NCBI GenBank assembly: GCA_964016885.1
Contig: OZ024741.1
Location: forward strand, 345,340,001-345,404,000
DNA length: 64,000 bases
Direction: 5' to 3'
From: Eledone cirrhosa
Taxonomy: Eukaryota
The notes beneath the pieces were generated by a model. That model searched no databases, was not told the origin of the DNA, and worked only from the letters and a program-made list of their open reading frames with translations. How positions within the stretch are numbered: the first letter of the stretch is position 1; every line of letters begins with the position of its first letter. Shown here piece after piece: positions 24,961 to 57,629 of this stretch. The position numbers and the translations under genes were made by a program.

Positions 24961-25159
24961 TAAAATATATTCGCTAAAGGTACAGTTGAGTCGAAAGACT
25001 ACATCGTACCGTATTGGATGACATCATGGATAAAACCAGTCGGGAGGGAGGTGGAGAAATTTATAAGTATTTAGCGGAAAGGCAAACGTTGAGAGCCTTT
25101 GCGCTATAACTGTGTAATGTTACCTTCCCCTCCCTCCCGGCTTGTCTCCCTTGCCAAAA

Positions 25160-26174
25160 GTACAGTTCACAGCGCAGACAATATCAAATTACATTTACTG
25201 ATATAAATTACAGCGGGAAACATGACAATAGCAGAATTAGAAACATACTTAATGCCAGCAAGCAATTTCAGAGTCAAATCATGCAGTTACAAAGTATCTA
25301 ACATAATACCATTAACAGATGAATTGGGTACATTACAAGGGACTACAACAACTAACACTACTTTCAACACTAGACCATGGAGGATACATTATGTAGATAA
25401 CAAATATGCACTATTTCCTAATCAAACATGGAATATAAGTCATTTAAATAATAACTGGACACATAACATACCACTAACAAGAGAGGAAGGTAAATTAGGA
25501 GGAATAGTAAGTAATAGACAAATTAGAAAAGATTGGTGGCTCTGGCAAGACACAAAAGCTGCAACACCTACAGAACAATAGAAGAAATACTATCATATCT
25601 AAACACAGGCGACTTCCAATTCTTATACGCTGGCGATACAGCACAATACACATGGATCAATAGAACACCTAGTTGGTTTTCGCTTATGGGGTATTACGCA
25701 TTCAACACTACTTTCGAACTACCAACAATAAAATTAACTAACGGTTTACCTTGTGAAATAAATACATATTCGGGGGCGAAAAAATCACAATGGGCACCAA
25801 CAAAAGATGGGACATGGAGTAGAGATTTAGCAGTAGATAAAACTGAGGAGGAAGAAAATACGCGTAGATCACATCTAACACAGTTTCCTATAAATCCATC
25901 AAATCCACCACCAATAGCAACATTAGACTCAGTACCTATATTAGATTCACAAAATAACCCATCAAAGATATCATTTATGATAACGATAACTTATTACTCA
26001 GAAATAGATTTCAAATATATATCTGGTAGTCCTCAAACAATGGGTTGGATGGCTTGGGGTGCAGCTAACGCAACAATAATGAATTCAGCAAAAACTAACC
26101 TATGTAAATGGCCACAAGGTTTACGTAATTATGAAATAACGAGAACTGGTAAAACTCACCAAGCACATCGTTAA
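25160..26174 (+). pseudogene. VP: Endogenous parvovirus-like element 1: capsid protein, 5'-truncated with one frameshift
   Basis: FRVKSCSYKVSNIIPLTDEL..TTFNTRPW..YVD resembles hamaparvovirus/densovirus jelly-roll strands; paralogous pieces at 30400-30950 and 56380-56487. Confidence 0.8.
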
Positions 26175-26223
26175 AGTAGTATTACAATGTAACCATTTTC
26201 CATTTCAGAACGTTGGACATAAA

Positions 26224-27843
26224 ATGTACATGTGTATCTATCCTTGGATAGAAGAAAACGATTTTTTGGGGGATAAAGGTTTAATACCGATAGAACATTA
26301 TCAGCTTAATGTACATAAATATTACGAAGATGAAAGTAGAAAAGATGTATACCAAACCAATACTAACTACAAACTAAAAGAATTCATCCAATCAACGAAT
26401 GCAACCGTAATTTACCATCCGAAAAATAACGCACTTTGTCAAAAGAAAGAATGGAATGCCTTTAACCACTTCCACATTATATAGCACAGTATTGTACGAC
26501 CTGGTGAAAATCAAAAAATGAAATACATAAGAAGTCTCTACAAAAAAGCGACTAAACTAAGCAGATACATACCTGAATGTCAACGCATCAAATTTCCATC
26601 AAGCATGGCAAACTACTTCTGTCGACCACCAAGATACGTATTAATTAAAGGAAAAGATAGCATAAACGAACTATTCACCGATTGGTGTATGCAGGAATAC
26701 GTTCCTAAACCAGACTTAACAATCAAACCAATAAGTAACAAACAACCTACTGAGGAACCAACATTTAAATCAAAGTCAGGAACAACATTAACTCTGTTCA
26801 ATTACCTAACATATATCTTCACTTCAAAAAGATTTCGTACAGAACAAGACATGAAATCACATTGGTTACATAGACCAAACAATGACAACTTCATGCGAGC
26901 AATTTCTCATCCGATGTACAATTCGGTTATGAAAAAAGTCCTAGAATGCGAAAAATAAAAAAATCTAAATCAACCATTCAAAGAAAAATTTGAAAACATG
27001 CCATGGGAATACTTCGATAACAACAAGTGCTACATGGACAGAGACGTTTCTCTGAAAATATTCCCATCAATACTTCTTACTCAAAACATAATTGAATCTA
27101 CATTTGTAACAACAGTATGGGAATTACTGACACAGAAGAAACCGAAAAGAAACTTACTCGTATTAAGAGGCATACCGAACACTGGAAAGTCAATGATAGC
27201 AAGAAGTGTTGCTGACATGTTTACACATGTATCAACAATTCAAGGTATCAGTAGCTTCCCGTTTCAAAATCTGGTAAACGTTGAAATCGGTTTAATTGAA
27301 GAACCAAATTTCACGTTAGAAACATTACAAACTTTCAAGAAACTTGCCGAAGGCGTGGACACTGAGGTTGCGATAAAATTTAAACAAGATCAGGTGGTCC
27401 ATCGCACACCACTTATCACAAGCAACAACAAATTCGACCAAAACGCACCGCTGTCGGAACGAATTGCATTCATAACAAGATACACCGAATATCTATTCAA
27501 AGCAACTTCACCATTTTTGAAACATGTTAAGAAAAAATTAAATCCATTTATATGGAATGAACTATTCTATGAACGTTGCTTTAGTAACCTCATCAATGAA
27601 GATAGCTCATCTTCCGACGACAATCTTAATTTAATTTTAGATGAATACGAACGACTGCAAGAAGAAGACAGGAACAGATTTCGGACTCCGTCTCCTAATA
27701 GAAGCGGGGACACCGTCAGATTGGAGTGCAACGAAGAAGAAAACTCAGACTCAGACAAAGAAAACCAACCAAGAGAATGTGCGTCTAATGTGCGTACAGC
27801 ACAGACGCACATTAGACGTGGGCAATGCGACTGCACCTTATAA
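26224..27843 (+). pseudogene. NS1: Endogenous parvovirus-like element 1: NS1/Rep (HUH endonuclease plus SF3 helicase), disrupted
   Basis: NHFHII HUH motif (~26465-26481), motif III-like MANYFC, Walker A GIPNTGKS, Walker B LIEEP, FKKLAEG, motif C ITSNN, acidic/Cys C-terminus. Confidence 0.93.
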
Positions 27844-27893
27844 ATTCAAGAGCGGGCGCTGTATCACCAAATAGCAGCTGACACTCGAATGAC

Positions 27894-28904
27894 ATGGACC
27901 TCCAGGAGAAGAATAAGTTCAACGAAGACTTCTTTCAGGACATAACCAATGTTGACAACCTCACCGCTTATACCTGGGTGTATAGGTGGGCAGAAGAAAA
28001 GGAATTTAACTGGCGGAAACCTGACTTATACAAGAAACCACACCAAGTCATTAATCACCAAAGTTATAAAGAAGAGCACATCTTGTTATTTCGTATTCTG
28101 TGTACATTTTCTAGTATTATCATTTATCACCCTCGCAGACCCATTAGAGTAAAGCATTGTAATGACATTGACCACTTTCATGTTATTATCTGACACTCTA
28201 ATCATCCGAGTAGTCAACATTCTTTCCTCAAGTTGAAGAAGAGTCTACTAACTAATACTGGCTACGATTTGAAAGCGGTAAAGATACAGTCACCGGCAGG
28301 ATTCGCAGAATATCTAAAGTATGAAGTGGTGAAAGAATGGGGTAAGAAAGAATTGAACCCGCTAATGTGGCTCGTAATATGGCATGAGTTTATAACCGAT
28401 TACAAGGAAAATAAATACCTATCTACAAAGTTGACGTCGTTACCAGAGAGCAAGCATTATATTAACCATATGGGATCGTTTAAAAAGAAAGTGACGTCGA
28501 GAAAGAGACCATTACCGGAGGCTACTACTTCATGTATTGAGGTAAATAAATGTGGTAGTGGTGTGAGTTACTGGTTCCCTTCTCATTCAACTAAAGAGAT
28601 TGAAGATGACGACGATATTAAGAGAAGCAAAAATGATGATACTGATCGTGACTATAAAAAGGCAGAAGAATATTGGAAACCCTTACTTACAGAACCGTTG
28701 CTGAATAATAACGAGTACTTGGAAGACCTGAATAACGAAAACTGGGATGAAGAGTTAAAAATAGACGAAGGAATAAAGGCGCGAGATATAATATCGGGTG
28801 CTGATGAAGCGATAGCAGGATTGTGCAGAATGGACAGCGAAGATTTACAGCAGTGTTGTTTATTGCATGGGACAGACTTTTCTTCATGTAATTTTGGTGA
28901 ATAA
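27894..28904 (+). pseudogene. NS1: Second parvoviral NS1 (different lineage), HUH domain fused in frame to the NS1 C-terminus with no helicase
   Basis: NLTAYTWVYRW, DHFHVII(*=W)H, PAGFAEYLK, then KKELNPLMW (cf. KKKLNPFIW in EVE1); AATAAA at 28900-28905 overlaps the stop. Confidence 0.8.
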
Positions 28905-28959
28905 ACAGTGTGAAACTTGATATATTTGTTTGTCTTTATTGAATCTGATAAAGTAGGTC

Positions 28960-29178
28960 ACCATTGAAAAGTTCTAAATATTTTTCAATGGTCGAAGGTG
29001 TCATGATGGCGGCTGAAAACAAGATGGCGGATGGATTGGAATATCTCCTATGCTATTGATACTATTATTATATTATTATATATATATAGTAGTATAGTAG
29101 TAGTAGAATGTATTATAGAAGAGGAGTGATGACGCCATGGCCGCCATGACACCTGTGACCATTGAAAAATATTTAGAA
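28960..29178. repeat. Candidate parvoviral terminal hairpin
   Basis: TTCTAAATATTTTTCAATGGTC..AGGTGTCATG..GGCGGC pairs with GCCGCCATGACACCT..GACCATTGAAAAATATTTAGAA around an AT-rich centre; lies just after the viral poly(A) signal. Confidence 0.65.
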
Positions 29179-29194
29179 ATAAATATTGTGATAA

Positions 29195-29424
29195 TTAATG
29201 ATGTGGTGCACCAACGGAACTTTGTCGATCCTGTAGACCCTCATGTGCACACGCAACTCATAGAGAACACATGGAGCCGTGCGAAGAAAAAGCTTCGTCG
29301 CCAGCATGGGACCAGCAATGCTTTATTCCTCTCATATCTAGCTGAATTTCTTTGGCGGCAGAGAGTTGGTGCCAACAAGTTTGGCGAAATGCTAAACTGT
29401 ATTGGAGCTATTTACTGGGTGTAG
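29195..29424 (+). pseudogene. Merlin (IS1595/ISXO2-like) transposase 3' fragment
   Basis: VVHQRNFVDP..HTQLIENTW..SYLAEFLWR; close relative of the 53566-54540 ORF. Confidence 0.88.
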
Positions 29425-29959
29425 TAAAGATTTTAATAAGGTTGGTAAATTTAAATTTTATATGCAACAAACGTTTAAATATGTAATTTTTTTCAACACA
29501 CAACAGTTTAAATATGTAATTTTTTTCAACACACAAGTTTAAATATGTAATTTTTTTCAACACACAGAACGGACAGTATCAACAACAACATTTACAATCG
29601 AAAATGAAAATAATTCATGACAATAAATGTAGTTTCATTTTCATGATGTTGAAAATGAAAATAAATTTACTTTCATTCTTCAGACCGTTAAAAGTCAGGT
29701 ATGCCTTGCATGCCAGTATTATTTTCTCGTTTTCTCTCAAAGTATGTTTCATTACCTGTTGTAATGCACGCACCACAATAAAACATAATTTATTGTTGGC
29801 ATATGTTGGACATAATTCGTCGTGTTTTCATTATTCATTGTTGAATGAAGAGAGACAAGTTTGTAACCAGAAAAATGATGTAAAAAATACTTCTATGTCT
29901 TATTTTGTATTGAATTTGTGGTTGGCTTGCTAGATTCACCAATAAACCAACACACTAAA

Positions 29960-30395
29960 TACTTTTGAAAATAGCAAAACTATTAGGAATATATATAAAA
30001 AGGCTTCTAATTTCAACAGAAACGTACCAGAAAGCCAATGAGTTAAATTTCCGAGCAGTCTCACAAACTATCTTTGTCAATCACCGAGAAAACTTATATG
30101 TAGCGGGTGCAACAAACTTAATGGCAACTTCGCTACTTGGTGTGAACTTGATTACATTCCTAGAGAATCAAATACACCAGCCAAAAAAAAAAGAAGAAGA
30201 AACTAATGTCGCATTTAATAAAGGATCGTTGATTTTTTACTGTTCACCCCCCTTCTGGAGTCATTTATTTCTACAAAGAGAAACGATGTATTGTCCATTC
30301 ATCGACAATCATTCATTTCCTTTAAGCCCAATATTTTCAAAGAAAAGAAAACAAGAAGATAACTGTTTACAACAAGAAGAAGAAGATATCGAAAG
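29960..30395 (+). pseudogene. NS1: Parvoviral NS1 fragments (relative of EVE1 NS1)
   Basis: Alternative frame reads KTIRNIYKKASNFNRNVPESQ*VKFPSSLTNYLCQSPR..FATWCELDYIP, aligning to EVE1 KYIRSLYKKATKLSRYIPECQRIKFPSSMANYFCRPPR..FTDWCMQEYVP; then a PPFWSHLF acidic tail. Confidence 0.75.
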
Positions 30396-30399
30396 CGAA

Positions 30400-30950
30400 A
30401 TGAGTGGCGACATTCAGCAGCCTGATTCAAGTGCATCTAAAGTTGGACCACAAGTGGAGGATCTGGAGCAAGAATAGCAAGCGATATACCAACTACTGTA
30501 GGTGATAACAATCCTATTGTATGCAAACAATTTTCAAGAACATTTTTTCATTACCTTGACGCATTCGACGTACCTATAGATGTCTGCAAATACAAACTAA
30601 ACGTAACTCATGAACAATATACATCACTACAATTCATTCACCGAATGGTAGAAATACGATATACTGATTTACGAGCATCAATAACAAAAGCAGAATTGCA
30701 AACATATATGTATCCATGCATCGCTTGGAGAGTTAACAACGTAGGATTCCAAGTCAGTAACATCATTCCAATTACAGACGAATTAAGTACTGTACAAAAT
30801 ACAACAACAACAAATACAACTTTCAATACACGACCATGGATAGCGTGTTACGTTGATACAGATGCACGATTTTTTGCAAACAGAATAGCAACTATACCAC
30901 AAGTGAATAAAAACTTCGGAGAAAACATACCGTCAACAAGAGACGCTGGG
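30400..30950 (+). pseudogene. VP: Parvoviral capsid N-terminal half (relative of EVE1 VP)
   Basis: MSGDIQQP..GGSG..KQFSRTFFHY..WRVNNVGFQVSNIIPITDELSTVQNTTTTNTTFNTRPW. Confidence 0.82.
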
Positions 30951-31259
30951 TAGTGCTGCTCGTCCATTATAATTGCAGCACTATTACAAGAATATCACAA
31001 TGATGCATTAAGGTAAGGGCGATAATTTGAGTAACACTGACTAATAAGTAATGTCTTAACTTAGTATTATCACGTCTTATCACTACATGCTTAATTGATG
31101 AATTCCATTTCAAAATAGCACATTACTAGTCATTCTTGCATTAGTTCTATTGAACTCGTTGCCTCATTGATCCTTTATTGAGTCTGCCACTCTAATTTCC
31201 TCAAGTTAAGTTATTACTATTCCTACATGAAAGGAATAATCTTCATATATAACTTGTCT

Positions 31260-32590
31260 CGACTTGGTTAACACCCATGTGTTTAATTTGCAAGGAGTCC
31301 TTTTCGAATGAGGCAATCGCGTTTGTGTAGACACCTGGAGGTTAGGCACCCCGATAAGAGATATAAAGATTTAGCATACTTTCAGTCTCTTAGCGACCAA
31401 TTTCAGAAAACAACACTAATTTCTTCTGCCTTTTCAAAAGTTGAAGCTTCAAATGTTGATGGACTTGTCGCATCTTACAATATTGCCAACATAATCACAA
31501 AGTGTGGCAAGCCACATTCCTTGGGTGAAACATTGGTAGCTCCTGTCATCTCAGAAGTTCTTTCAACAGTACTACATCAGAACCCATTAAAGATCTTGAA
31601 ATGTATTCTGTTGAGTAACGACTCAATAAGGAGACGCATCGACGAAATGGCGGAAAATGTTGAACAAAAATTATGCAACATCTTGAAATTGACACAATTT
31701 GCTTTGCAACTTGATGAAAGCACACTTTCCGGGGATCTGTCCTTACTACTGGGATACGTGCGATTTTTACACCAAAACGAAATGCACGAGGAGCTTCTAT
31801 TCACTCTGAATCTGCCAAGGGATACCTCGAAGAAAAAGAGATACCTCTTAACAATATTGTATCGTGCTACGGACGGCGCAAGAGCAATGGTCAGCCAACA
31901 TAAGGGTTTCGTCTCTCTTCTGAAGAGGGAAAATCCATCTGTATTTGCTATTCATTGTCATTCATCGACAACACTTGGCTGCGAAGAAACTTTGCAGGTC
32001 TTTGCAGGTAGCCATTGATGTCATCAATTATATCAAACGAATTTTCCAGCAACTGTGCGAAGATAATGACGAAGAATTCGTCGAGTTGCTCCTTCGTACT
32101 GAAGTGAGGTGGCTTTCAAAGGGCAAGTGCCTTACTCGCTTCTTTGAACTGTTCGACTATCATTGAGTTTCTTCGAGGACGCAACACAGAACTGTATAAA
32201 AAAAATCCTCGATGTGAGGCAAGACTGCGCCTACCTCGCCGACATCTTTGACAAATGCAATAGCCTCATTATGACTTTGCAGGGGGAGAAGATCACCTTG
32301 TTTAAAGCAAGGAATGTTGTGAAAATATTCCTGGTCAAATTGAAAGTCATCGAAAGGAATCTTTGTCGACGGGAATTCTATAATGTTCCTAGTGACGACA
32401 ATGTTCAAAACATTGTGAGCGATGACCAACTCCAAATTTATACCGCGCACCTCCGTTCACTACAAGACAACATGAGAGAACGGTTTGTCGACCTTTTGCA
32501 GATGGACATCCCAATGTGGATAGCAGATCCCTTCATAGCTAACGTCGACGATTTGGACGTTAAATTTTAGGAAGAATTAATGGGAATGTT
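31260..32590 (+). pseudogene. hAT (Buster/Charlie, ZBED5/SCAND3-like) transposase, frameshifted
   Basis: L.RHL..RHP, KPHSLGETL, LSNDSIRRRIDEM, FALQLDEST, TDGARAM, HC..HRQHL, EVRWLSKG. Confidence 0.9.
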
Positions 32591-32617
32591 TTTGTTTGTA
32601 AATAAGAGGTGCCCTAT

Positions 32618-32625
32618 TATAAATA
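32618..32625 (+). promoter_or_regulatory. Candidate TATA box for the EVE2 capsid gene
   Basis: TATAAATA about 40 nt upstream of ATG 32665. Confidence 0.4.
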
Positions 32626-32664
32626 TCACTGTAAAGCATTGGCAGTATCATTATATTTTTTCAC

Positions 32665-34387
32665 ATGCCACCGATAAGAGGTGCCAAGAAAAAGAGCGGT
32701 GAAGATCCACTAAAAGAGAAGACATACGAATTACACCCACCAGGCTATAAATTCCTAGGGCCTGGAACACATATATTCGATAAGTTAGAAAAAGTACCTC
32801 TTAACGAACTAGACAGACTAGCGAAAGTACATGACCTCCACTATACCGATCCTTATAAAGATACTTGGGAGGCAGACAAACAATTCATCGACGGAGCCAT
32901 CCACCAAGGCCCACTCGGATTACTTTCAGCAGGAGCTATCTACGCTAAACACAATTTTGGGCTCGATCAAATCTTCAGACCGGCCCATCCAGATAGTTAT
33001 CGTGCTCTGTTTCCTAGTCCTATACCTCCTCAAGATATGGCAGATTCGAAAGGCAGCCAAGGCGAGGTCAGCGCTCAACCAAGCCATTCCACACAAAAAA
33101 TCCAATCAACAGGCATTCCAGATGACGCAGGAAACTTCAAAAGAAGATACATCATATCCAGAACTTTCAGAAACGTAATTAAGACAACAAATATGAACGA
33201 AGCTCCCGTAACTTTCGAAAAGTTTAGTTCCACTGGAGAGAAAACTTATCACAATATTGGACACTACGCTAAAGGTACAGTTGAGTCGAAAGACTACATC
33301 GTACCGTACTGGATGACATCATGGATAAAACCGTCACAATGGGAGGCGATGACTCAAATGGCAACATCACACAGAGTTTCAAAAGAAGGATTCAAAATTG
33401 ACGATATCATTTGCAGTGAATTCACCTCAAGAAACAACAAAGAAATATTCATTGATTCACCCACGCCCTACTTTGAAATTTACGTAGATACAGGAAAGTA
33501 TATCGGTCACGGAAATTTAAAATCCATTTCCAAACTACCGAACCAATGTCTACGTAAAACACAACCAACAACATTTGCAAATTTAGAATTACCGACATAT
33601 GAGTTTACATATTGCACACCAATAAAGCTAATCAATCAATTCGCAGAACCACAAATAGACGGCAAAATAGAAAAAACTAAATTACTAATTCACGAACTAC
33701 ACGACTGGAGAGATATGAGATCTAAACGAAAAATGAGACAAGGAGATACTTTCCAACACTGCTGGGACAACCCATCAAGACTGGAAATTGGACTAACAAA
33801 CTTCACACAAAACAACAACTATACAGTAACAGGCTTAACAAATACATTCGGCGACGCATTCAACTGGGAATCGAACGTTAATGTCGACATGACATGGGAC
33901 GGTTGCCTAGACACAGAGACAGCACCATTCGTTGGAAATGCTACAACTTCAAGAGACGATGGCTTCCAAGATAACAGAAAAAGAGCAAGAGAACCAACTC
34001 AAGAAGACATAAACTACACAGAACACTCCAACATAACGTTCGACCACATAAAAACACGTAAAGTAGCAGGTATAGATAGATGTCCTCGATTCGGGAAATT
34101 TCATTGTGGCAAACAGAACAGTCATTAACAAAGTACTATACACACCAGAAGAACCTCAAGAAATGGTATTAATAAACGTACCCGTAATAGTAAGACCTAA
34201 CAACACAAGACCATGTATCTACTTCACATTCGACCTGACATACTACATCGAATTAGAATGCAGCTACGAACAGTTCAACCATCCTCAAGTGGTAGCTACA
34301 ATAGACCCACCAACGGCATTAGTAGCAGCACCAGATTGGAATTTCAGTCAATTCTCAGTAACATGCCCAAGCAGGCACTTACACTAA
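32665..34387 (+). CDS. VP1: Endogenous parvovirus-like element 2: VP1 capsid with phospholipase A2 domain (487-aa open frame, C-terminus continues in another frame)
   Basis: PPGYKFLGPG Ca-binding loop and LDRLAKVHDLHY catalytic HDxxY motif; jelly-roll-like SRTFRN and HRVSKEGFKIDDI..PYFEIYVDT; ORFs 32665-34128 and 34106-34387. Confidence 0.9.
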
Positions 34388-34506
34388 AAAAAGGAAAACA
34401 GGGCGTACAATACAATACAACGAAGATATGAAACGCCCACTACAATATATATCCGGGCATTTCGTTAACAAATAGAACACAGGCACTTAAACACATCAAA
34501 AAGCAC

Positions 34507-34514
34507 TATAAATA
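34507..34514 (+). promoter_or_regulatory. Candidate internal TATA box for EVE2 NS1
   Basis: TATAAATA about 40 nt before AAAC-ATG-G at 34552. Confidence 0.45.
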
Positions 34515-34551
34515 ACGTTATCGAAAACAAGTCACCACACAGCAACAAAAC

Positions 34552-43910: not shown

Positions 43911-43962
43911 TATCACACCAAATGTAAACATCTGGTTTCATCAATTTTGATGAAGACAGTAA

Positions 43963-45306: not shown

Positions 45307-45309
45307 TTT

Positions 45310-46115: not shown

Positions 46116-46248
46116 TCTCGTCATCCCAAAAGTTTTGTTTTTCTCTATTGGCTTTTTTGCCAATTTTTTTCCCACAGACTTGTTTATGGGGTGCCTGACT
46201 TGACCCTCAAGGAAGGTGACCCCATAATATTCAGACCGTTGGCTAAAT

Positions 46249-46815: not shown

Positions 46816-47129
46816 AAAAAAAACGTTCCTGTTTCACGACCTATTTTAATGGAAAAGTTGTGTACAGTGTAATTTACTCATCTTGCTTAAACCGGTTTAT
46901 AAATTCTAGCTGTTCTTTTGTTATTCTAATAAACTTCGTTACTTAACATTTATCTTTTATTTTGACTAAAAGAAGCCAAAACATTAGAAACCATGAGCAT
47001 TATGTAACAATGGGATTGTAGAATTCACTTGTAGCAAGAGTTGCCTCCCTTGTTATGACGTCAGATCAGCAGCAGCGCTTGTACAAATAAAATAGTCTAA
47101 CTGCAGCGTTCGAAGAAGCCAGATGTTAA

Positions 47130-47560
47130 TAGTTTTGCAGCAACTGTTGTCTAGGAATCGGAATATTTTGAGATGGATATATACATAGACAAAAGTCTCA
47201 TACACTGACAAAATGTGGTTTACCACAAATATTGAAGAGGTAAAATGCATTCTTAAAGGTACGCCTACATATATAAACCTTAAGCAACAACCAGAAAGGA
47301 TACTGAAAAGAACACCATCTTTAAGCACCAGCAGCACCAAACCATGAAATAGAATTATGCATGAAGTCATCCTCAACAGGCTTTTACTACTCGAAAAGCA
47401 CAAACCCATGCCAAAACTGAAAAAAATAGGGAATGATCAAATTAAACCCACTCAAAAGGGAGAAACAGTAATATATCACCCTGCAGAAAGTAAAGACACA
47501 AACTTTCATTTAAACTTCATATGGGTTTCACTTAATAGACCAGGAGGAAATCAACAATTT
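47130..47560 (+). pseudogene. NS1: Two parvoviral NS1 snippets: helicase B-C region, then an HUH-region piece
   Basis: TDKMWF..EEVKCILKGTP..ERILKRTPSLSTS..NRL; then ETVIYHP..FIWVSLNRPGGNQ (cf. EVE1 ATVIYHP..IVRPGENQ). Confidence 0.75.
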
Positions 47561-48369
47561 TAATACTTGTCTCTTCACCAAATTTAAAAAAAAACAAAAA
47601 AACAAAAAAAAAAAAACACTTGGCTTATTATTTTAGTCCACAGTGTAGGCCTGAGAGAAACCATACCACAGTGAAATTTGTGGAGAAACTTTTACCTTGA
47701 TTAAAAATGACCCCCAAAACAGTCCCAATGTCTGGGGTGGTCAAATAAAGCAGTAAGATGAGTATTCTAGTTACAATAAATTGTGTTTATGTATTTATTA
47801 CACTAACACTTACCAAGAAGGATTGTCATTGTGTCCAAAATCTTGGTGCTTGGTTTGCAATAAAACCTAAATTACATAGAAATACCAGTCTACCAGATAC
47901 TTGGGCACAAAAGTGATTTGTTGATAATTATATAATTAGATCATTCTTTCACAAGGTATGCCCAACTTCAATAAAATTATAACTGTGATACCAGGTCGAT
48001 CTCAACAGTCTACTATCATTACTGCAAGTGTGTGGCGAATGCAGCAGACTGGTTTTAGAACACTTCCAGTAGCTATCTGCTTCTTGTACCCCATCTGCTA
48101 TATGTGGCATGACACTGACATGTATGCCATGACATTTTCCCTCGCTGGCAGCAGTGGAAACTTTGATGGTTTCCAACCTGGCCACCTCAAAGTGTTGTTA
48201 TCCTTCCTATCAGCTGAAGCCTTCTGTGTGCAATTGTGGCACTCAACAGGTTAATCCATGGCGCCCTGGGTCCTACATCCGAGGCTTCTTTTCAGCAGTG
48301 GCGAAGGTGGCAAATGCCGACTGAGCGCTTGCAAAAAAAAAAAAAAAAAAAAAAAAAAATTGTAATTTG

Positions 48370-49312
48370 AGCGATATCCAAAAATACCTCCCCCATGCCT
48401 AGGGCTAAATAACTTCGCTGTTCGCTGCTGATATGAGGCTAAATAACTTCGATGCTGGCTGCTGAAATGAGGCTATTCCAACAAATTTACATTCCCTTTT
48501 TTTTAGCCGTTAAAAGAAATATAGATTTATTTATTTATTTGAAACGTTTTTGTTAGTTTCATTGTTTTGTTTTTTTGGCGATATTTTTGTTAGTTTTTTT
48601 TTTTTTTTAGTTTCTTTTTTTTTGGCGTTTTTTGCCAGGTTTTTTTTTTATAGATTTATTTATTTATTTTTAACGTTTTTGTTAGTTTTTGTTTTGTTTT
48701 TATGTCACAAACATTGCTCTCCGACGCTCTACCGATAATAGTAAGTATTAGTGGTTGTAATAAAAATGCAATCAAAATGTAATAAATACCTTCACTGATT
48801 TCTTTCCTTATATTATCAACAGAAGTTGGTATGTCACCCAAAGTTTCTAATTCCTTCTCCACAGTAAGACAAATATCCATGTAGTTGAAGAGGATAAGTA
48901 TGAAAGAACAGTCATTGGTAAAGTGTTCTATGAATGTTTTCGAACGAATGAATAATTTCAGTTTAAAATCAATTTCACTTTAACTTATATACAAATCAAT
49001 TATAAGATAACAGAACTATGTTATTTCACCTTTAGCAGGGAGCTAGTTATGCCAATTCGTGGAAAATACCCATAAAAAAAAAAAAAAAAAAAAAAAATCG
49101 CCAAAAAAAAAAAAAAAAAAAAAAAGAAACTAACAAAAACGTTTCAAATAAATAAATCTATATTTCTTTTAACGGCTAAAAAAAAGGGAATGTAAATTTG
49201 TTGGAATAGCCTCATTTCAGCAGCCAGCAGCGAAGTTATTTAGCCTCATATCAGCAGCGAACAGCGAAGTTATTTAGCCCTAGGCATGGGGGAGGTATTT
49301 TTGGATATCGCC
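48370..49312. mobile_element. Non-autonomous long-TIR element (Merlin-like) nested in the hAT
   Basis: GCGATATCCAAAAATACCTCCCCC..; TIRs over 200 bp; 8-bp TSD GTAATTTG (48362-48369 and 49313-49320). Confidence 0.8.
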
Positions 49313-49432
49313 GTAATTTGTTTTATTGGGCCAGTTTAAAAATATTAAAGCATTAAAATTGTGTAAGCAACAAATAATTGGTAAGTTCCTTTTATTATTT
49401 CCTATACCTTTTATTATTTCCTATACCCTATA

Positions 49433-49625
49433 AGGGCGGTGAATTGGCAGTATCGGTAGAGGGTCGGACGCCATGATTTGACGTATATAGTTATGGCCCT
49501 TGCCATTCTGAGTTCAAATCTCGCCGAGGTTAACTTTGCCTTTCATCCTTATGGGGTCGATAAAATAAAGTACCAGTAATCTACTGGGTAATTGCTGGCC
49601 TTGTGTCAAAAGTAGAAACAATTAT
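49433..49625 (+). mobile_element. SINE inserted upstream of the hAT transposase, probably in a 5' intron
   Basis: Full SINE; ATTATTTCCTATAC repeated on both sides; GTAAGT near 49382 and TTTGTAG near 49656. Confidence 0.8.
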
Positions 49626-52600
49626 TTCCTATACTTAGTTTATATTTTGTTTGTAGACTGACTCACAATGAATAAGAAGAAGTTTTCATCAGGTGCTGAG
49701 AAACATGCACTCAAAAGAAAAAAGGATTTGGAATCAGCAGGCAAAGCAAAAAATCAAAGATTATTGACTTTTTCTGCGCCCCATAGTGCAGATATTGAGG
49801 ATGTTGCAGAAGAAAATATTCCTACAATATCTACAGGTGAAGCTGAAACTATTCCTGAAGGGGCTGAACCTGTGCTTCCTTCTCAAGTGACTGAACCTGC
49901 TGTAGAAAATATAAGTCTTTCTGAAGTTGAAAATGAACTTTCTGAAATTAGTCAGGCTTCAATGCCATTTTTAAATGACAAAGCACGATTTGACACAGGA
50001 AAGAATAAAGTGAAAGATTACTTGAACATTTTAGTTGAAAGGGGTGCTTGTCAACCTTTGGAAAATGATATGCCTACAGGAGACTATCCCATTATCCATT
50101 CTAGAAAATTCAAGAGCAGTTACTATAATTTTAAAAACCCCCTTGAAGAACGAGTCCACAGATACTGGTTAGCTTATTCATACAAAGGTAATTATTGTTA
50201 CTGCCATCATTGCTGGTTATTTGGTGATGAAGAGGCCAAAAACTCGCCATGGTCAAAGAGTATGAATGATTGGAAGCACATTTCCAAAAGCATTGAAAAA
50301 CACTCTCAATCAAAAATTCATCACAGAGCAGTATATGCCTATAAACAGTTCGCCAAGAATATGTCCATTGGAGTTTCAGTGAAAAAACAAATGGATGCAG
50401 AAGTTCAAAAATGGAAATATGTTCTTAATCATCAGTTCGGACTTTTACGAGAACTTACATGTCTAGGATTGCCATTAAGAGGTCATAGAGAATCCTTGGA
50501 TGCTGATAATCCAGGTGTGTACTTATCAATATTAAGGCACATACGCACAATCGATCCTATTCTTAAACAACATTTTGAGGACAAGGGACAACTCAAATAT
50601 CTGAGCAAAACTATCTTTGAGGAACAAGTCCAGATTCTTTCAAAAAGGACACTTGACAAAATTGTTGATCTTTGCAAGGAAGCCAAATTTTTCAGTGATT
50701 GCTGATTCTACAACTGATATAAGTCATAAGGACCTAGTGGCGGTGTTATTGAGATTTATAAAAATTGACAGACTTGAAAAGTCAGTGGAAATTGTAGAAC
50801 ACTTTGTTGGATATTATCATGTCCTTGATGCTAGTGCAATTGGTATTACCAGTGTCATTGAAAAGGCATTGTTTGAAGAACTTGGCTTGCAGCGCAAACA
50901 TCTTAAAGGACAGGCATATGATGGAGCATCTGTGATGAGTGGGGCATTAGGTGGTGTTCAAGCTTTACTAAAAAAAGAATATGGCACTGGACGGAAATAC
51001 TTTTGTTCCATATGTTCACTGTCCTCCCCACCAACTCAATCTAGTTCTTGAACATGCAGCTCAAAGTGGTACTCCTCCACCTAAATGCTTCTTTGATAAC
51101 ATTCAATCTATCTATGCTTTCTTTGTTAATTCAAATAGACGCTGGAGTCAACTTCTTGATATGGCAAAAAGTCAGGAGAAGAATCTTTTAGAAGCTGTTG
51201 AGAAGGTTATTTCTAATTCAATTGACGATGAAGTTGAAGATGAGCATATATGTGGCTCATCAAGATCCAGAACTTTGAAATCACTCTCTCAGACAAGGTG
51301 GTCAGCCAGACATAATGCAGTTTCTGCTCTCCTGGGAAACTTTCACAATGTCAGTGAATGTCTGGCAGATTTGATAGAAGAAAATCATGACTCAAATGAA
51401 GTAAAACAGGCAACTGATTTGCAAGGGAAAATGGACTGGACTTTTTTCCTATCTCTACTTTGGTGGAACAAAGTGTTAGAAAATATGAATTCAGCTAATC
51501 GTCTTCTACAAGCTAAGACAATTGATTTGAACGTTCAACAGATAAATTGGAAGAACTCAGATGCTATCACAAATTTGAACAATTTGTGGACCAGGCAAAG
51601 AAAGCCTGGAATGACGTGGGATTTGATGCATCTGAAGCTGATTTTAAAATAACGCGAGTAAGGAGAAGAAAGATTATGGATGGTGAAGTTTGTGGTGTTG
51701 AAAGACTAGCTACTGCTTCAGATAGATATCACACTGCAATTTATTTTCAATCACTGGATAGTATGATTGGGGAGATGCGAGCCCGAACTGAAGGAATAAA
51801 AAAAATATCTTCAATCTTTGGATTTTTGAGTCCAAATCGACTGGCTAAATGCTCAGATGATGAACTAAAAACACATGTAGCAACATTGGTAGATAACTTT
51901 CCAAATGAATTCACACTGGAACTCAGAAATGAACTCTTTTCTTTCATTGGCCTCTGTTTTAAAGCTGCGTTTGGCTGTGAAAAGTAAAGTGGGGTTATGC
52001 CATATCTGAAATTTTTACTGAACAATGACTTGTGTGATGTCTTTCCCGAGTTTGACATTCTGGTAAGGCTATTTCTCACTTTACCAATTGGCATAGCAAG
52101 TGCGGAATGCTCTTTCAGTATTCTACGAAGAATTAAAAATTATCTTCGTTCAACGATGGGCCAGGAGAGGCTATCCAGTTTTGCCCTGCTGGCAATTGAA
52201 AACAAAATTACTAAATCAGTAAACTTGGACCACGCTATAACTCATTTTTCAACTGTTAAAGCTCGCAGAGGTCTGCGCATGTAAAAGCAATTTGTGTAAA
52301 AGACTAACATATATACAACTTTATTACTTTATTATTTGTTTACAGTACAGCACATCTGTTTGTTTGTTTCAAATAAAGTGTACTTGTAATTTAATTGTGT
52401 TCTTAATGATTATTGGTAGCTAAATGGGAAATTAAAAAAAAAACTTTTTCAATACTCGCTCGAAAAGAAGGTACTTTAATTTTCACTCTGGGGCCTCCTT
52501 ACTGACCAATGCCGACTGGGCCCTATTCCTTAAATCCGCCACTACTTTTCAGCCAGTCTGACTGCTCACAGGAAGAAAGAGGGTGGCATTTGCCCATTCA

Positions 52601-53015
52601 CTGAGGACGATGTCCTTCGGAAGCTGGCTGGTAAGGTGGTCTGCAGGTCCATCACACCTGAACTGGGCGAGGAACTCTGCCCGGTGTAACTAGTGGTCTG
52701 CACATGCCTTCAGCCACTGGAGTTCAACAGGGCGACCCTTTGGAGTCAACTCGTCCAAGTCAAAGGTGGTGAATTTAAACCATAATAGAGGGCTTTGCAA
52801 ACTACGCCTCGGACGTGCGATCTCTCCTCACTGACTTCGACACTCATACCAGAGTGGCAGCTGAGGAGATACGCAACATTAGGTTTGATGACTTTGGATG
52901 ACAACAGGCCACCTTACCCACTAAAAACGGGAGCCTTGGTCTCCCGTTTTGCTGGCGCTTCTTTCATTGGTAACCTCTTGCTGTGTCCTCATCAGTTAGG
53001 CAAATAACTCTTTTT

Positions 53016-54698
53016 GGCATACGTCAAAACGGCCGGTCGCAAAAGTGAAACTAATTTTTGACAGTTACGTACGTCATTACTTTCAATTTGGATTGTGAAT
53101 TTGTTTATTTTTTTACAACAGGTCTCAATAGTGAAAGTGAATTTTGTTGATGGTGTTAATTAGTATTGCGTGTACGTGATAATTTTTGTTTAATTCTTTT
53201 TTTGTGTATTGTGTGTACGGAAAATTTTTTTTTAAATAATGACATTGTGTGTTGAAATAAATAAATATTGAAACTCCTTATTTAAATAATGACATTGTGT
53301 GTTGAAAGAAATATTGAAAATCCTTATTACACCCTATAAATAGCTGAAATACAGTTGATCATCTCGCCAAACTTGTTGGCACCAACTCTGTCGCCAAAGA
53401 AATTAAGGTAGGGTCATAAGAAGGACAGAGAATCATAAGGGATTTGGGTCAAAGGGGCAGCTTGGGGTCAGAAAGGCAGATATCTGTCAGAAGGGCTGGG
53501 AAAATTTTTTTTTTTTTTAAACAAAGCACTGAAGGGCTGGATTGTAATACAGTGTCACATCAAATATGGCTGGACGAGTGTATGGTCGCGTTACCTTAGT
53601 TGAAGATATTTTGGATACCAATGCTATTCTTAATCGTTTTGAAACAGTGTATACACTGTGTCCGGCGATACACGGTGACACGTTGTGTATGTTACAGTGG
53701 TTGGCGAGTCGGCGTCTGTTGGCGAACAGTGTGAATTGTCCTGTCTGCAATGAGGCGTGCACATTGCAAAGAAATTCTGAGGGGATTGATAAATGGAAAT
53801 GGCGATGCGCCCACGACAAATTTAGTCAATCGGTGCGACGGAATTCTTTATTTTATCAAAGCCGTGTTCGACTCGAACACCTTATTGGCATTATGTATAT
53901 GTGGTGCTACGATCATCCACAAACTGAGATGTTCAAAGAAACAGAACTTAGCAACCAGACAATTATAGACTGGTGCAATTTCCTTAGAGAAATTTGTGAG
54001 CAGTATTTGGAGGCGAATCCTCAACAGCTTGAAGGATTCGATAAGAATGGTTCGTCGATCATTGTAGAGATCGACGAATCAAAATACTTTCATCGAAAGT
54101 ATCATCGTAGCCAGTGGAGACAAGGCCACTGGGTCTTCGGCGCTGTAGAACGCCATTCTGGACACTGCTGCCTCATCGCAGTCCCAGATCGAAGCCGTGA
54201 GACTCTTGTCCCCATGATACAGCAATGGATTTTGCCAGGAAGCCACATCATGTCCGATGGTTGGGCTTCCTATTCGGATATTGAAGACATTCAAGGTGGC
54301 ATTTACCTCCATGATGTTGTTGTGCACCAACGGAACTTTGTAGATCCTGAAGACCCTAATGTGCACACACAACTCATAAAGAACACATGGAACCGTGCAA
54401 AGAAAAAGCTTCGTCGCCAGCATGGGACAAGCGATGCTTTATTCCCCTCATATCTAACTGAATTTCTTTGGCGGCAGATGGTTGGTGCCAACAAGTTTGG
54501 CAAGATGATCAACTGTATTTCAGCTATTTATAGGGCGTAATAAGGATTTTCATAAGGTACATCAATTTATATTTCATATGCAACAAATGTATAGTTATTT
54601 TTTAAACAAACAAATTCACAATCCAAATTGAAAGTAATGACGTACGTAACTGTCGAAAATTAGTTTCACTTTTGCGACCGGCCGTTTTGACGTATGCC
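53016..54698 (+). mobile_element. Full-length Merlin DNA transposon
   Basis: ~90-bp TIRs GGCATACGTCAAAACGGCCGGTCGC.. / ..GCGACCGGCCGTTTTGACGTATGCC; 8-bp TSD CTCTTTTT. Confidence 0.93.
53566..54540 (+). CDS. Merlin (IS1595/ISXO2-like) transposase, uninterrupted 324-aa ORF
   Basis: CPVC zinc ribbon, IVEIDES, WVFGAVER, SDGWASY, HTQLIKNTW (catalytic E appears replaced by K). Confidence 0.9.
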   Translation: MAGRVYGRVTLVEDILDTNAILNRFETVYTLCPAIHGDTLCMLQWLASRRLLANSVNCPVCNEACTLQRNSEGIDKWKWRCAHDKFSQSVRRNSLFYQSRVRLEHLIGIMYMWCYDHPQTEMFKETELSNQTIIDWCNFLREICEQYLEANPQQLEGFDKNGSSIIVEIDESKYFHRKYHRSQWRQGHWVFGAVERHSGHCCLIAVPDRSRETLVPMIQQWILPGSHIMSDGWASYSDIEDIQGGIYLHDVVVHQRNFVDPEDPNVHTQLIKNTWNRAKKKLRRQHGTSDALFPSYLTEFLWRQMVGANKFGKMINCISAIYRA

Positions 54699-54914
54699 CT
54701 CTTTTTAATGTATGCTGAATAAGCAAGAGTAGAAAACAAGACTTATTACTTATTAAAATTGAACTGCTAAGAGGAAATCAATGAGTTTCATATATTTGAT
54801 AATACAGCTACTTCAGATAAAAATAGGGATGTAGACAAATTAAACACAAATTACTCGTTAGACACAGACAGAATGCCCAATGATTTGAATAATGGCTATA
54901 GATAGGATACTCTA

Positions 54915-55090
54915 CATCCCCATAGTACTACTCGGTATCCGCACTTCAATTAAAGAGGACCTTGGATTCTCTCCAGCCGAGCTTTTGTACGGTACTACTT
55001 TATCTCTGCCAGGGCAGATGCTTGCCCCAGTTGATCTTTCTACTCAGGACCCTACACTATGTGACCCATTTGCGTTCGTATTTTCCCCTG
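54915..55090 (+). pseudogene. Gypsy integrase C-terminal fragment
   Basis: PIVLLGIRTSIKEDLGFSPAELLYGTTL.LPG. Confidence 0.85.
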
Positions 55091-55687
55091 GTCAGCTCTG
55101 TCTATCTGGTCTCGTCTGAGGTTTTTCACCAGAGAGCGTGATTGAGATTGACCATGTATTCATACACAATTCCCATTGTTCAGATTGACCTTATTGCATA
55201 TGAAAATGTTGCTATTGCGAGGTGCGACGTAGTTCCATTACATGGCTATTTAGGTCGAAGACAAAGGAATTGCCATGACTCATTTTCCTTAATGTTTCAT
55301 TAAAAGAACTTACCCAATAGTCTAATGCTTTGCTTGTAACCAAATCCAGCAAACCTAAATCCTATGTTAAGATGGATAGATATGCTGATCTAATACATGT
55401 GGACACACATTACAGAAACTATTATTATAAAACATTGATATTAATGTAATTATTATATAGTATAGTGGTTAAGGACTAGGTAAAATTGAACAAGCCAATA
55501 TATATATATATATAGACTCCTAGGGATGGAAAAATGGCTAATAATAACATTTTACAAACAGCAGGAGTGAACAAATTTAGCATCGGAAAGATGTCAAAAT
55601 CAGATACCATTGTTTAATACAGCGACACTAGTGTTAATAGAAAATAAATTAACCAAACAAAATATTGATTACTGAAATAAGTACTGA

Positions 55688-55842
55688 CTTTTGCAGCAAC
55701 TCTTGTCTAGGAACCGGAATATTTTGAGATGGAGATATGACTGCTGCATAGACAAAAGTCTGATAAACACTGATGAATTGTGGTTTGCCACAAATAATAT
55801 TGAAAAAGCAAAATGCATTCTTGAAGGTACTCCTACATATAC
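55688..55842 (+). pseudogene. NS1: Parvoviral NS1 helicase snippet
   Basis: CIDKSLINTDELWF..NNIEKAKCILEGTPTY; nucleotide-similar to ~47132-47275. Confidence 0.78.
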
Positions 55843-56379
55843 AAAGCTGAGGTTACTATGATCAATTAAAAATAACCTAAATTCAGTAGTGGCCCCAGCA
55901 TAGTTGCAGTCTTGACTGAAACAAGTAAAAGTATAAATGAGGTTAAAAAATTATAATCTTATTAACTACATCTTATCTCAGACATACTCTTAAGTTCTTG
56001 GAGTTGAGTTGAGATTCAAAATTATAATAAGGATACTTTTTTTTTTAAAATGTTAATGAAAAAAATATTTAAAAAATGAAGAGAAAAATGGCAAAATGGA
56101 TAATGGATATATCATATAAAATTCCTCCTGGTGTGAGTTCAAATCCAGTCCAGGTCAATTTTGATGGTCCATCTTTCCCAGGACAATAAAATATAAGCAT
56201 CTGCTATAATACTAAAGTCAATACAATTGACAAATCCTTGAGAGCAATGCCTACTGAAACCAGTAAAAGAATAAAAAGGTATTGTGTATAGGTAGCTGTA
56301 ACAGGTTATAGTGGTACTATGGTTCATGTACACCTCACATCAAGAACAAATTGGTTCACGAACAATTTTTCTGAACAAG

Positions 56380-56520
56380 TAACGCATTAATAAGCTATTC
56401 GGCAAAAACTAACTATGTAAATGGCCGCAAGGTTTACGTAACTATAAAATTACGCGAAGTGGTACTACCAGACAGGCCATGCGTTAAAGTAATATTACCA
56501 AAAAACCTCTTTCATTTATA
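56380..56520 (+). pseudogene. VP: Parvoviral capsid C-terminus (relative of EVE1 VP)
   Basis: SAKTN.CKWPQGLRNYKITRSG..R* versus EVE1 SAKTNLCKWPQGLRNYEITRTG..R*; downstream TAAAGTA.TATTAC also conserved. Confidence 0.85.
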
Positions 56521-57411
56521 CTTTCAGATAGGGACCATCGGACTCTTACGCGAATTGTTAGAAAGGATCACAAAAGTACAGCTCCCAAAATTATTGCAGA
56601 GCTTAATGACCACCCCAAGAATCCAGTTTCCACAAAAACTGTTCGCCGGGTGCTGCACAAAGCCAGATTTCACGGGAGGGCTGCAATCGGAAGACCACTG
56701 CTTTCAAAAACAAACGTTGCAAAGCGTTTAGAGTGGAGTAAAAACCTACAGAATTGGTCCCTAGAGCAGTGGAAGAATGTTATTTTCTCGGACGAGTCAT
56801 CCTTTACCTTATTTCCGACCACCGGCCGAGTATACATGTGGAGACAGCCAAAAGAAGCATTTGACCCAGACTGCCTTCTTCAAACTGTTAAACATGGAGG
56901 AGGATCTGTGATGATCTGGGGGGGCTATATCTTGGAAATCCGCTGACCCAATGATTTCCCTTCATGGCAGAATTAATAGTCAAAACTATTTAGGCATTTT
57001 ATCTGATCAAATTCATCCTATGGTTGTGGAACTGTTTCCGTGGGGAAACAGTAATCTTTCAGGATGATAATGCACCAATTCACACAGCTAAAGTTGTTAC
57101 TGAATGGCACGAGGAACATTCTAGTGAAGTTGAACATCTTATCTGGCCACCACAGTCCCCAGATCTCAATATTATTTAACATTTATGGTGCATTTTAGAA
57201 AAACAAGTAAGGAGTCGATATCCTCCACCATCACTACAAGAACTGGAGACTGTTTTAGCTGAAAAATTCATTTGAAAACAATTCAAACTTTGTACGAGTC
57301 CATACTTCATAGAATTCAAGCTGTAAATTACTGCCAAAGGCGGTCCTACCCCATATTAAAATAAATTTGTTTGAAATTTTAAGGTGTTTCCATTATTTTG
57401 TCCAACCCCTG
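56520..57411 (+). mobile_element. 5'-truncated Tc1 transposon
   Basis: WKNVIFSDES, TVKHGGGSVMIWG, FQDDNAPIH, WPPQSPDLNII; right TIR ..TTGTCCAACCCCTG|TA. Confidence 0.92.
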
Positions 57412-57412
57412 T

Positions 57413-57580
57413 AGATATATAGAATACGTTTTCGTATGCGAATCGCCGTTTCTGAAACACGTAAGAATCAGAAACGCCAAATTGAAGAATCCAAGACTTC
57501 AACGAAACTGACAACTCCAACAAAGAAAACTACGACCCAAGAGCAAAGTGGAGAAAATACGCAAGGAAATTGAACTCAGA
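57413..57580 (+). pseudogene. NS1: Parvoviral NS1 C-terminal snippet (relative of EVE1 NS1)
   Basis: RYIEYVFVCESPFLKHVR versus EVE1 RYTEYLFKATSPFLKHVK; DNSNKEN versus DSDKEN. Confidence 0.72.
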
Positions 57581-57629
57581 AAGATATGCTGAATCGGCGA
57601 CAAAATTATAATTATATTCATAATGCATC

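What the first reader, a model, noticed from the sequence alone, without database searches (positions are those of the whole stretch)
24972..57580. Library of at least 10 parvoviral pieces from several distinct viruses
Seen: homologous but divergent NS1/VP segments recur at 24972, 25160-27843, 27894-28904, 29960-30950, 32665-35850, 41818, 42126, 47130, 47455, 55688, 56380 and 57413. They fall into two NS1 types: EVE1-like (IEEP Walker B) and EVE2-like (TDE.WF, CILEG). Most pairs are recognisable mainly at the protein level, which argues for independent captures from different viruses rather than local duplication. Inference: the locus records repeated germline infections.
Basis: partly seen in the sequence, partly recalled or inferred. 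Interest (0 to 1): 0.75.

Follow-up and report, generated by a model that had tools for sequence, protein, structure and literature searches.

The report
Capsid-first parvovirus fossils in transposon trap
This stretch of what is likely an octopus chromosome holds 14 broken pieces of at least five different parvovirus-like viruses among transposon scraps that nearly all point the same way, likely a small-RNA (piRNA) defence locus, and the viruses carry their capsid gene ahead of their replication gene, the reverse of the textbook parvovirus order.

Summary
Fourteen parvovirus-like pieces (about 9.8 kb) lie between 22.9 and 57.5 kb, all on the + strand; none was found in 200 kb of flanks. Ten of 15 within-window pairs show a significant excess of synonymous change, so at least five (at most about eleven) viruses contributed. 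Three pieces are probably local duplicates, so not every piece is a separate capture. The setting explains the pile-up: about 20-84 kb is a microsatellite-free mosaic of transposon fragments, 20 of 93 plus-strand versus 1 of 70 minus-strand ORFs. The family occurs at 57 or more loci genome-wide; 6 mix both NS1 types (0.07 expected), and the other mixed loci are also one-stranded. This resembles a uni-strand piRNA cluster; no small-RNA data were available. The surprise is the virus. Fuller copies read hairpin - VP - NS1 - hairpin on one strand, with head-to-head and tail-to-tail fold-backs, and a separate 4.1-kb metagenome contig has the same order. NS1 is HUH+SF3; VP joins a PLA2 domain to a shell matching shrimp densovirus capsids. 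Cephalopod parvovirus fragments are in print; this gene order and the clusters were not found in nine searches.

The parts
20000..64000 (+). One-strand, microsatellite-free mosaic of transposon and viral fragments (continues to about 84 kb, beyond the window); candidate uni-strand piRNA cluster
   Evidence: 20 of 93 plus-strand vs 1 of 70 minus-strand ORFs hit transposon families; microsatellite 6 vs 1641 nt per 10 kb; flanks
22870..23041 (+). T2 NS1 fragment, duplicate of the 41849-42302 piece with shared piggyBac-like flank
   Evidence: 22550-23030 vs 41400-42127, 86-93%
24972..25038 (+). 66-nt copy of T2a VP, fused to the T1 left hairpin
   Evidence: 98.5% to 33267-33332
25039..25161 (+). 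T1a left terminal hairpin
   Evidence: 78% to L033 hairpin; 90% to L119
25162..26174 (+). T1a VP, C-terminal part; N-terminal third with PLA2 absent, one frame change
   Evidence: 92-93% aa to copies on C1 and C25
26203..27770 (+). T1a NS1 (HUH + SF3 helicase), two in-frame stops, directly downstream of VP
   Evidence: 69% to P0001
27780..28904 (+). T2b: VP C-terminus, NS1 N-terminus, internal deletion of the helicase near 28330, NS1 C-terminus
   Evidence: 61% aa to L022 T2; junction spanned by contigs without differences
28972..29178 (.). Hairpin just downstream of T2b, probable right terminus (inferred from position)
   Evidence: z=-11.4; single place in the genome search; 32-nt match downstream of T2 NS in L114
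29976..30179 (+). T1-type NS1 fragment of another virus (42% aa to T1a)
   Evidence: dN/dS 0.34
30205..30324 (+). Last 120 nt of the LTR of a young Gypsy element, between two viral pieces
   Evidence: 95-98% to full elements with 464-nt LTRs
30325..30950 (+). VP fragment of a third lineage (52% aa to T1a; 59% to an Octopus vulgaris 'capsid'); left boundary inferred, homology shown from 30450
   Evidence: dN/dS 0.43; long branch
32665..34472 (+). T2a VP with PLA2 domain, frameshifted
   Evidence: 82% aa to a copy on C8
34550..35850 (+). T2a NS1, stops and frameshifts, downstream of VP
   Evidence: 84% aa to the C18 copy with saturated dS
41849..42302 (+). T2c NS1 fragment
   Evidence: dN/dS 0.40 vs T2a
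43095..43960 (+). 5' part of ORF1 of a high-copy L1/Tx1-like LINE, abutting a viral hairpin (host element; clade label recalled)
   Evidence: (18,028 first-look candidates)
43963..44198 (.). T2 left hairpin with 5' leader on both arms (head-to-head fold-back)
   Evidence: z=-28.7; 79-83% to L037, L022, L035
47133..47450 (+). T2d helicase fragment, with a 55-nt leader shared only with T2e
   Evidence: (dN/dS 0.22 vs T2a)
47465..47575 (+). T1-type NS1 N-terminal fragment
   Evidence: (E=7e-4)
55689..55852 (+). T2e helicase fragment, probable duplicate of T2d
   Evidence: (82.5%)
56380..56517 (+). T1-type VP end plus spacer of another variant (84% nt to C12 copy, 79% to T1a)
   Evidence: (dN/dS 0.21)
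57410..57472 (+). Short T1-type helicase fragment
   Evidence: (E=8e-4)

Best explanation
The locus is a one-strand trap of transposon and virus fragments, likely a piRNA cluster, that holds pieces of at least five different capsid-first parvovirus-like viruses plus three probable local duplicates. Shown: the pieces, their common orientation with the transposon fragments, divergence under purifying selection between most pieces, recurrence of such mixed one-strand loci, and the order hairpin-VP-NS1-hairpin. Inferred: (1) a diverse population of linear ssDNA viruses replicating by rolling hairpin repeatedly reached the cephalopod germline. (2) Viral DNA, including fold-back replication intermediates and forms recombined with each other or with retroelement cDNA, inserted at many sites. 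(3) In this locus, inserts lying antisense to a long minus-strand transcript were kept because they would yield antisense piRNAs; this gives the strand bias. (4) Later deletions, stops and small duplications fragmented them. Odds: several viral sources 0.93; recurrent trap locus 0.88; makes piRNAs 0.7; VP-first order is the true order of a linear genome 0.85.
For: Selection: 10 of 15 within-window pairs have pS>pN at P<=0.007; window-versus-other-locus pairs have dN/dS 0.06-0.11 or saturated dS. Strand bias: Pfam on all ORFs of 65 aa or more from 19.5 kb gives 20 of 93 plus vs 1 of 70 minus; outside about 20-84 kb the hits are 5 plus and 6 minus (145 of 188 ORFs scanned). All 14 viral pieces are plus; none in 200 kb of flanks. 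Recurrence: 57 loci, 6 mixed vs 0.07 expected. In the five other mixed loci, transposon segments are 32 co-oriented vs 1 opposite; median microsatellite content is 14 vs 778 nt per 10 kb in flanks. Gene order: 24 VP-end/NS-start junctions in 18 of 62 sequences; NS-end/VP-start only in L022, across hairpin or LINE pieces. Two different termini flank near-identical copies, and head-to-head and tail-to-tail palindromes are centred on them. Contig L135 has VP (31% to T1 VP, E=2e-43) upstream of NS1, a terminal palindrome and no terminal direct repeat. Retroelement links: LTR end between two viral pieces; Gypsy Pol frame running into NS1 on C18. Precedent: mollusc piRNA clusters are enriched in Gypsy and DNA transposons (PMC6128900, passages); arthropod EVEs are enriched in piRNA clusters (PMC7527727, passages).
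Against: No small-RNA evidence. Five of 15 pairs are not significant (11-28 codons, one misaligned across a frameshift). Short pairs chosen by protein similarity are biased towards low dN/dS. Non-overlapping pieces cannot be compared, so the virus count is 5 to about 11. Single-type loci also lean co-oriented (24 vs 10, P=0.024), so the contrast is graded. One mixed locus (C23) had no transposon hit to test. The transposon library came partly from the window. The shrimp IHHNV clusters mix reading directions (PMC9357335, passages), so strand bias is not a universal mark of such clusters. Genome counts are lower bounds. Only one non-host contig supports the gene order, and its NS1 start is split over two frames.
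Confidence: 0.7

Rival explanations
1. Insertion-tolerant graveyard: repeated captures pile up in a gene-poor, fragile region with no small-RNA role; the strand bias comes from insertion preference or from loss of one orientation inside a transcribed unit.
For: No RNA evidence for function; single-type loci are also partly co-oriented; no Rfam match.
Against: DNA transposons, LTR elements, LINEs and viral DNA insert by unrelated routes yet share one strand; same pattern at four further testable loci; sharp loss of microsatellites.
Confidence: 0.17
2. One or two integrations of a mixed concatemer from a co-infected cell, later scattered by transposon insertions, duplications and decay.
For: T1 and T2 pieces are fused directly at 25038/25039 and 27770/27780; C12 holds T1-T2-T1 in tandem; three local duplicates exist; fold-back concatemers occur.
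Against: At least three T1-type and two or three T2-type variants are needed; pieces differ in decay, from long open frames to several stops; they are spread over 35 kb among many unrelated transposons. It may still explain the 25-29 kb block.
Confidence: 0.1
3. The VP-before-NS1 order is an artefact: the virus is circular or forms head-to-tail concatemers and the inserts are permuted copies of a normal NS-VP genome.
For: Two same-strand genes on a circle have no fixed order; only one non-host contig was seen; a nonanucleotide-like word (resemblance to circular ssDNA virus origins recalled, untested) lies in the T1 VP-NS1 spacer near 26177.
Against: No hairpin lies between VP and NS1 (spacer of tens of bases); the left and right hairpins differ and share only a short repeated motif in inverted orientation; head-to-head and tail-to-tail palindromes are seen; L135 has inverted, not direct, terminal matches.
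Confidence: 0.12
4. Assembly artefact: viral reads from an infected animal stitched into the chromosome.
For: Four other loci (C5, C10, C14, C998) carry 99.8-100% identical copies with fold-backs, which could be such artefacts.
Against: Window pieces carry stops and frameshifts; short-read contigs cross viral-viral and viral-host junctions with no differences (26187-29268, 29537-31012, 55213-56374), although these runs may be the assembly's own samples.
Confidence: 0.02

Closest known systems
IHHNV EVE clusters of Penaeus monodon (PMC9357335; abstract and passages)
   Same: Scrambled parvoviral fragments grouped in piRNA-like clusters next to transposon sequence
   Different: Each shrimp cluster matches one virus type at 99% and mixes reading directions; here at least five viruses at 23-80% identity lie on one strand, in a mollusc
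EVE-bearing piRNA clusters of arthropods, e.g. the Diaphorina citri densovirus EVE (PMC7527727; passages); flamenco-type uni-strand clusters (recalled)
   Same: Dense fragments of mobile elements and viruses in one orientation
   Different: piRNA output is shown there and untested here; in D. citri the EVE piRNAs were not required for the antiviral ping-pong response
Mollusc piRNA clusters of Lymnaea and Crassostrea (PMC6128900; passages)
   Same: Enrichment in Gypsy and DNA transposons such as hAT
   Different: The word 'viral' does not occur in that paper's main text; no cephalopod clusters described in the passages seen
Cephalopod parvovirus-related sequences of Francois et al. 2016 (PMC5013282; passages and supplement rows)
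   Same: Lists Octopus bimaculoides A0A0L8GWZ8 (= P0004, 70% to the window T1 helicase), an O. vulgaris VP transcript and Sepia and Euprymna NS ESTs; says mollusc sequences branch outside known genera
   Different: Fragments only in the rows seen; no gene order, termini or clustering
Parvoviridae; Penaeus monodon metallodensovirus capsid (PDB 6wh3), AAV Rep and VP1
   Same: HUH + SF3 NS1 (profile E=3.5e-26 to AAV Rep); PLA2 N-terminus like AAV VP1; shell matching 6wh3 (E=1.1e-10), 9nek and 3n7x; terminal hairpins
   Different: VP lies upstream of NS1 on the same strand, whereas a 2024 review states that all parvoviruses carry NS on the left and VP on the right (PMC11357303, passage); unit about 3.4-3.5 kb; no genus-level relative found

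Membership tests
Parvoviridae | NS1 with HUH endonuclease and SF3 helicase | tested here: met
   Pfam Parvo_NS1 E=7e-16 and 1e-16; invariant H-x-H and Walker A columns; AAV Rep best PDB match
Parvoviridae | Parvovirus-type jelly-roll capsid protein, often with PLA2 at the VP1 N-terminus | tested here: met
   PLA2 E=2e-13; Atlas top hits parvoviral VP1, score 0.93-0.94; profile match to PmMDV capsid. Met by sequence only; the structure job never returned
Parvoviridae | Coding region flanked by terminal hairpins | tested here: met
   (both ends on L111)
Parvoviridae | NS cassette on the left, VP on the right | tested here: not met
   24 VP-end/NS-start junctions, same order in L135. Filed as parvovirus-like; family and subfamily membership left open
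Parvoviridae | Genome about 4-6 kb | tested here: inconclusive
   T1 unit about 3.4-3.5 kb, L135 4.1 kb; a 3-kb parvovirus is in print (PMC13426907 section 4.2)
Parvoviridae | Linear ssDNA packaged in T=1 particles, rolling-hairpin replication | not testable with these tools
   Inferred from fold-back junctions
Uni-strand piRNA cluster | Dense transposon fragments in one orientation | tested here: met
   20 of 93 vs 1 of 70 ORFs; balanced flanks
Uni-strand piRNA cluster | Produces 24-32-nt, 1U-biased PIWI-bound RNAs antisense to the inserts | not testable with these tools
   No small-RNA reads could be laid
Uni-strand piRNA cluster | Long single-strand precursor transcript | not testable with these tools
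   Only contigs of runs of unrecorded kind were available
Endogenous viral elements | Viral sequence joined to host DNA, with decay | tested here: met
   Stops and frameshifts; contigs across junctions; germline inheritance in a second study not tested

The most novel reading that the evidence does not exclude
Cephalopods host an undescribed subfamily-level lineage of linear parvovirus-like viruses with capsid-first monosense genomes and a PLA2-bearing, densovirus-type capsid. It is still entering the germline, and the octopus genome archives its variants in several uni-strand piRNA clusters that act as heritable multi-virus libraries, with capture helped by retroelement reverse transcription.
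Probability: 0.45. Interest if true: 0.8.

Novelty: new variant of a known kind. Interest (0 to 1): 0.64.

Why it matters
If true, it breaks a rule stated for all monosense parvoviruses (NS left, VP right) and gives termini and gene order for a mollusc lineage so far known from fragments. It also names six mapped loci where one small-RNA experiment would test whether cephalopods keep a piRNA-based memory of DNA viruses, which is documented mainly in arthropods. The cluster by itself is a new example of a known kind; the reversed gene order is the surprising part.

Tried and rejected
Expression: no RNA holder listed. Run X1 is small (88 million letters) and covers the region unevenly, but its kind is not on record, so it was not used as evidence.

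Second viral segment: the A-rich ORF at 43095-43960 lies beside viral ends in several loci, but it is LINE ORF1 with 18,028 candidates, and 0 of 30 sampled copies had viral neighbours. Rejected.

Bipartite T1+T2 virus: each type has its own VP, NS1 and hairpins, and 51 of 57 loci hold one type only. Rejected.

Exogenous relatives: four scans of viral contigs gave nothing close (the four hits are 7.4-7.9 kb contigs at 27-31% over the helicase, probably papillomaviruses by size). The first metagenome scan was empty; the second gave L135.

Single-sequence PDB search with T2a VP found nothing. The structure prediction of a T1 VP never finished. Rfam: 0 matches. Earlier findings: none. Trees were mostly unresolved (2 of 20 and 0 of 12 starred branches) and are used only for T2a grouping with C18/C3 copies and the long branch of the 30.5-kb VP. 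The codon comparison of 22.9 kb with T2c was misaligned and is uninformative.

Literature: nine searches found no description of a VP-first parvovirus or of cephalopod EVE clusters; subscription papers, ICTV proposals and bioRxiv supplements were not searched and could hold one.


Full report
Setting. The window is G000:C2:345340001-345404000 of a 3.0-Gb genome. The closest named relatives of its viral proteins come from Octopus bimaculoides and O. vulgaris, so the host is likely an octopus (inference). The first 14 kb are rich in microsatellites (1641 nt per 10 kb); from 20 kb on they almost vanish (6 nt per 10 kb) and return near 86 kb.

Observation. All listed coordinates carry NS1 or VP homology. 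With one extra NS piece (22870) and one isolated hairpin (43963), I count 14 pieces, about 9.8 kb, all on the + strand. The reversed-window control gave one hit at E=0.048. No viral piece was found in 40 kb upstream and 160 kb downstream, apart from one E=0.009 hit treated as chance. Short-read contigs cross several junctions without differences; they come from one study and may be the assembly's own samples.

How many viruses. Nei-Gojobori counts on 15 within-window pairs give pS>pN at P<=0.007 in 10. Examples: T1a VP vs the 30.5-kb VP, dN/dS 0.43; T1a NS vs 29976, 0.34; T1a VP end vs 56380, 0.21; T2a vs T2c, 0.40; T2a vs T2d, 0.22; T2a vs T2b, saturated dS. Five pairs are not significant. 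Window pieces are closer to copies elsewhere than to each other: T1a VP is 92-93% identical to C1 and C25 copies, T2a NS 84% to C18, 56380 84% nt to C12. Overlapping comparisons need at least three T1-type and two or three T2-type viruses; the ceiling is about eleven. Three pieces look like local copies: 24972 (98.5%), 22870 (shared transposon flank) and 55689 (55-nt leader found at only these two places; dN/dS 0.46, P=0.08). Short pairs selected by protein similarity are biased towards low dN/dS, so the long pairs carry the weight.

Background. Four genome searches gave 172 rows. I dropped 24 cross-type duplicates (7, 17) and clustered 148 at 100 kb into 57 loci: 29 T1 only, 22 T2 only, 6 mixed, against 0.07 expected by uniform placement. 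These are lower bounds. The window is thus one of six mixed loci, not a singleton.

The trap. Pfam on every stop-to-stop frame of 65 aa or more from 19.5 kb found transposon families in 20 of 93 plus-strand and 1 of 70 minus-strand frames: piggyBac-like, ISXO2-like, hAT, Tc1/mariner, pogo, CENP-B-like and Gypsy. Outside about 20-84 kb the hits were 5 plus and 6 minus (145 of 188 frames scanned). In the other five mixed loci, transposon segments were 32 with and 1 against the viral strand; single-type loci gave 24 and 10 (hand tally; library partly from the window). Median microsatellite content was 14, 188 and 778 nt per 10 kb in mixed, single-type and flanking stretches. Unrelated insertion routes ending on one strand is what selection for antisense inserts in a uni-strand piRNA cluster would leave (inference). 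Mollusc clusters are enriched in Gypsy and DNA transposons (PMC6128900, passages); arthropod EVEs are enriched in piRNA clusters (PMC7527727, passages); shrimp carry parvoviral EVE clusters (PMC9357335, abstract and passages). piRNA output itself is untested.

The virus. NS1 has HUH and SF3 domains. VP starts with a parvoviral PLA2 domain and its shell matches the capsid of Penaeus monodon metallodensovirus and two other parvoviral capsids. Among 62 sequences examined, 24 VP-end/NS-start junctions were found in 18 (three of them short rearranged pieces in L105); the reverse junction occurred only in L022, across hairpin or LINE pieces between different variants. A 149-nt hairpin lies about 340 nt before VP, and on C10 it is the axis of a 3.1-kb head-to-head palindrome. 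A different hairpin follows NS1 and is the axis of a tail-to-tail palindrome on C998. One copy on C5 shows both ends about 3.4 kb apart. Metagenome contig JACSEC010000037.1 (L135, 4079 nt) repeats the order, with a terminal palindrome and inverted end matches. A 2024 review states that all parvoviruses carry NS on the left and VP on the right (PMC11357303, passage); a 2026 paper bases family placement on the SF3 domain (PMC13426907, sections 1 and 4.2). I therefore call these parvovirus-like and leave membership open. Cephalopod fragments of both NS1 types and of VP were listed in 2016 (PMC5013282, passages and supplement rows).

Route of capture. Hairpins and fold-backs show that DNA forms were inserted, at least for the large pieces (hairpins are taken to lie outside transcripts; recalled). 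Retroelements may have helped: the last 120 nt of a young Gypsy LTR sit between two viral pieces, a Gypsy Pol frame runs into NS1 on C18, and LINE ORF1 abuts viral ends here and on C12 and C25. Shrimp viral copy DNA is a precedent (PMC8507497, abstract only). In a transposon-dense locus such contacts also arise by later insertion, so this step is weak.

Verdict. Real; several viruses; partly duplicated; one of several one-strand capture loci, probably piRNA clusters. The capsid-first genome order was not found in nine literature searches and is the most novel element. Interest 0.64; new variant of a known kind.

Noticed in passing
L111 (C5), L032/L127 (C10), L033 (C14), L024/L025 (C998): T1 copies 99.8-100% identical over most of their length at four loci, each with different flanks and fold-back junctions: very recent insertions or misassembled replication intermediates.
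   Followed up: partly
L030:3044-6016 (C18): A 991-aa open frame with Gypsy RT, RNase H and integrase runs in frame into T1 NS1.
   Followed up: partly
L021-L023 (C12:9.06-9.09 Mb): Tandem T2 fragment - T1 - T2 - T1 array with duplicated LINE ORF1 spacers (97.6% over 370 nt) and repeated NS1 tail pieces.
   Followed up: partly
L039, L040 (C27), L035 (C25): Parts of NS1 or VP expanded into tandem repeats (about 108-nt unit in L039), giving open frames of over 1000 codons.
   Followed up: no
window 26177-26185 and the matching place near 56490: A nonanucleotide-like word in the T1 VP-NS1 spacer resembling circular ssDNA virus origins (recalled); no strong stem seen by eye.
   Followed up: no
window 48371-49311: Inverted repeat pair of about 240 nt (92%) with poly(A)/poly(T) runs, probably the ends of a non-autonomous DNA transposon.
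   Followed up: no
window 36010-36809 and 29467-29566: Local duplications of 135-210 nt (94%) and a 31-33-nt triple repeat beside viral pieces.
   Followed up: no
window 14395-16392: Families of 44-79-nt dispersed repeats with roughly 127-nt periodicity.
   Followed up: no
L074:9413-10000: C2H2 zinc-finger frame on the minus strand about 40 kb beyond the window end, outside the one-strand zone.
   Followed up: no
window 38077-39612 and L021:6872-8540: The same Pfam-less transposon-like element occurs in the window and in the C12 mixed locus, co-oriented with the viral pieces in both.
   Followed up: no
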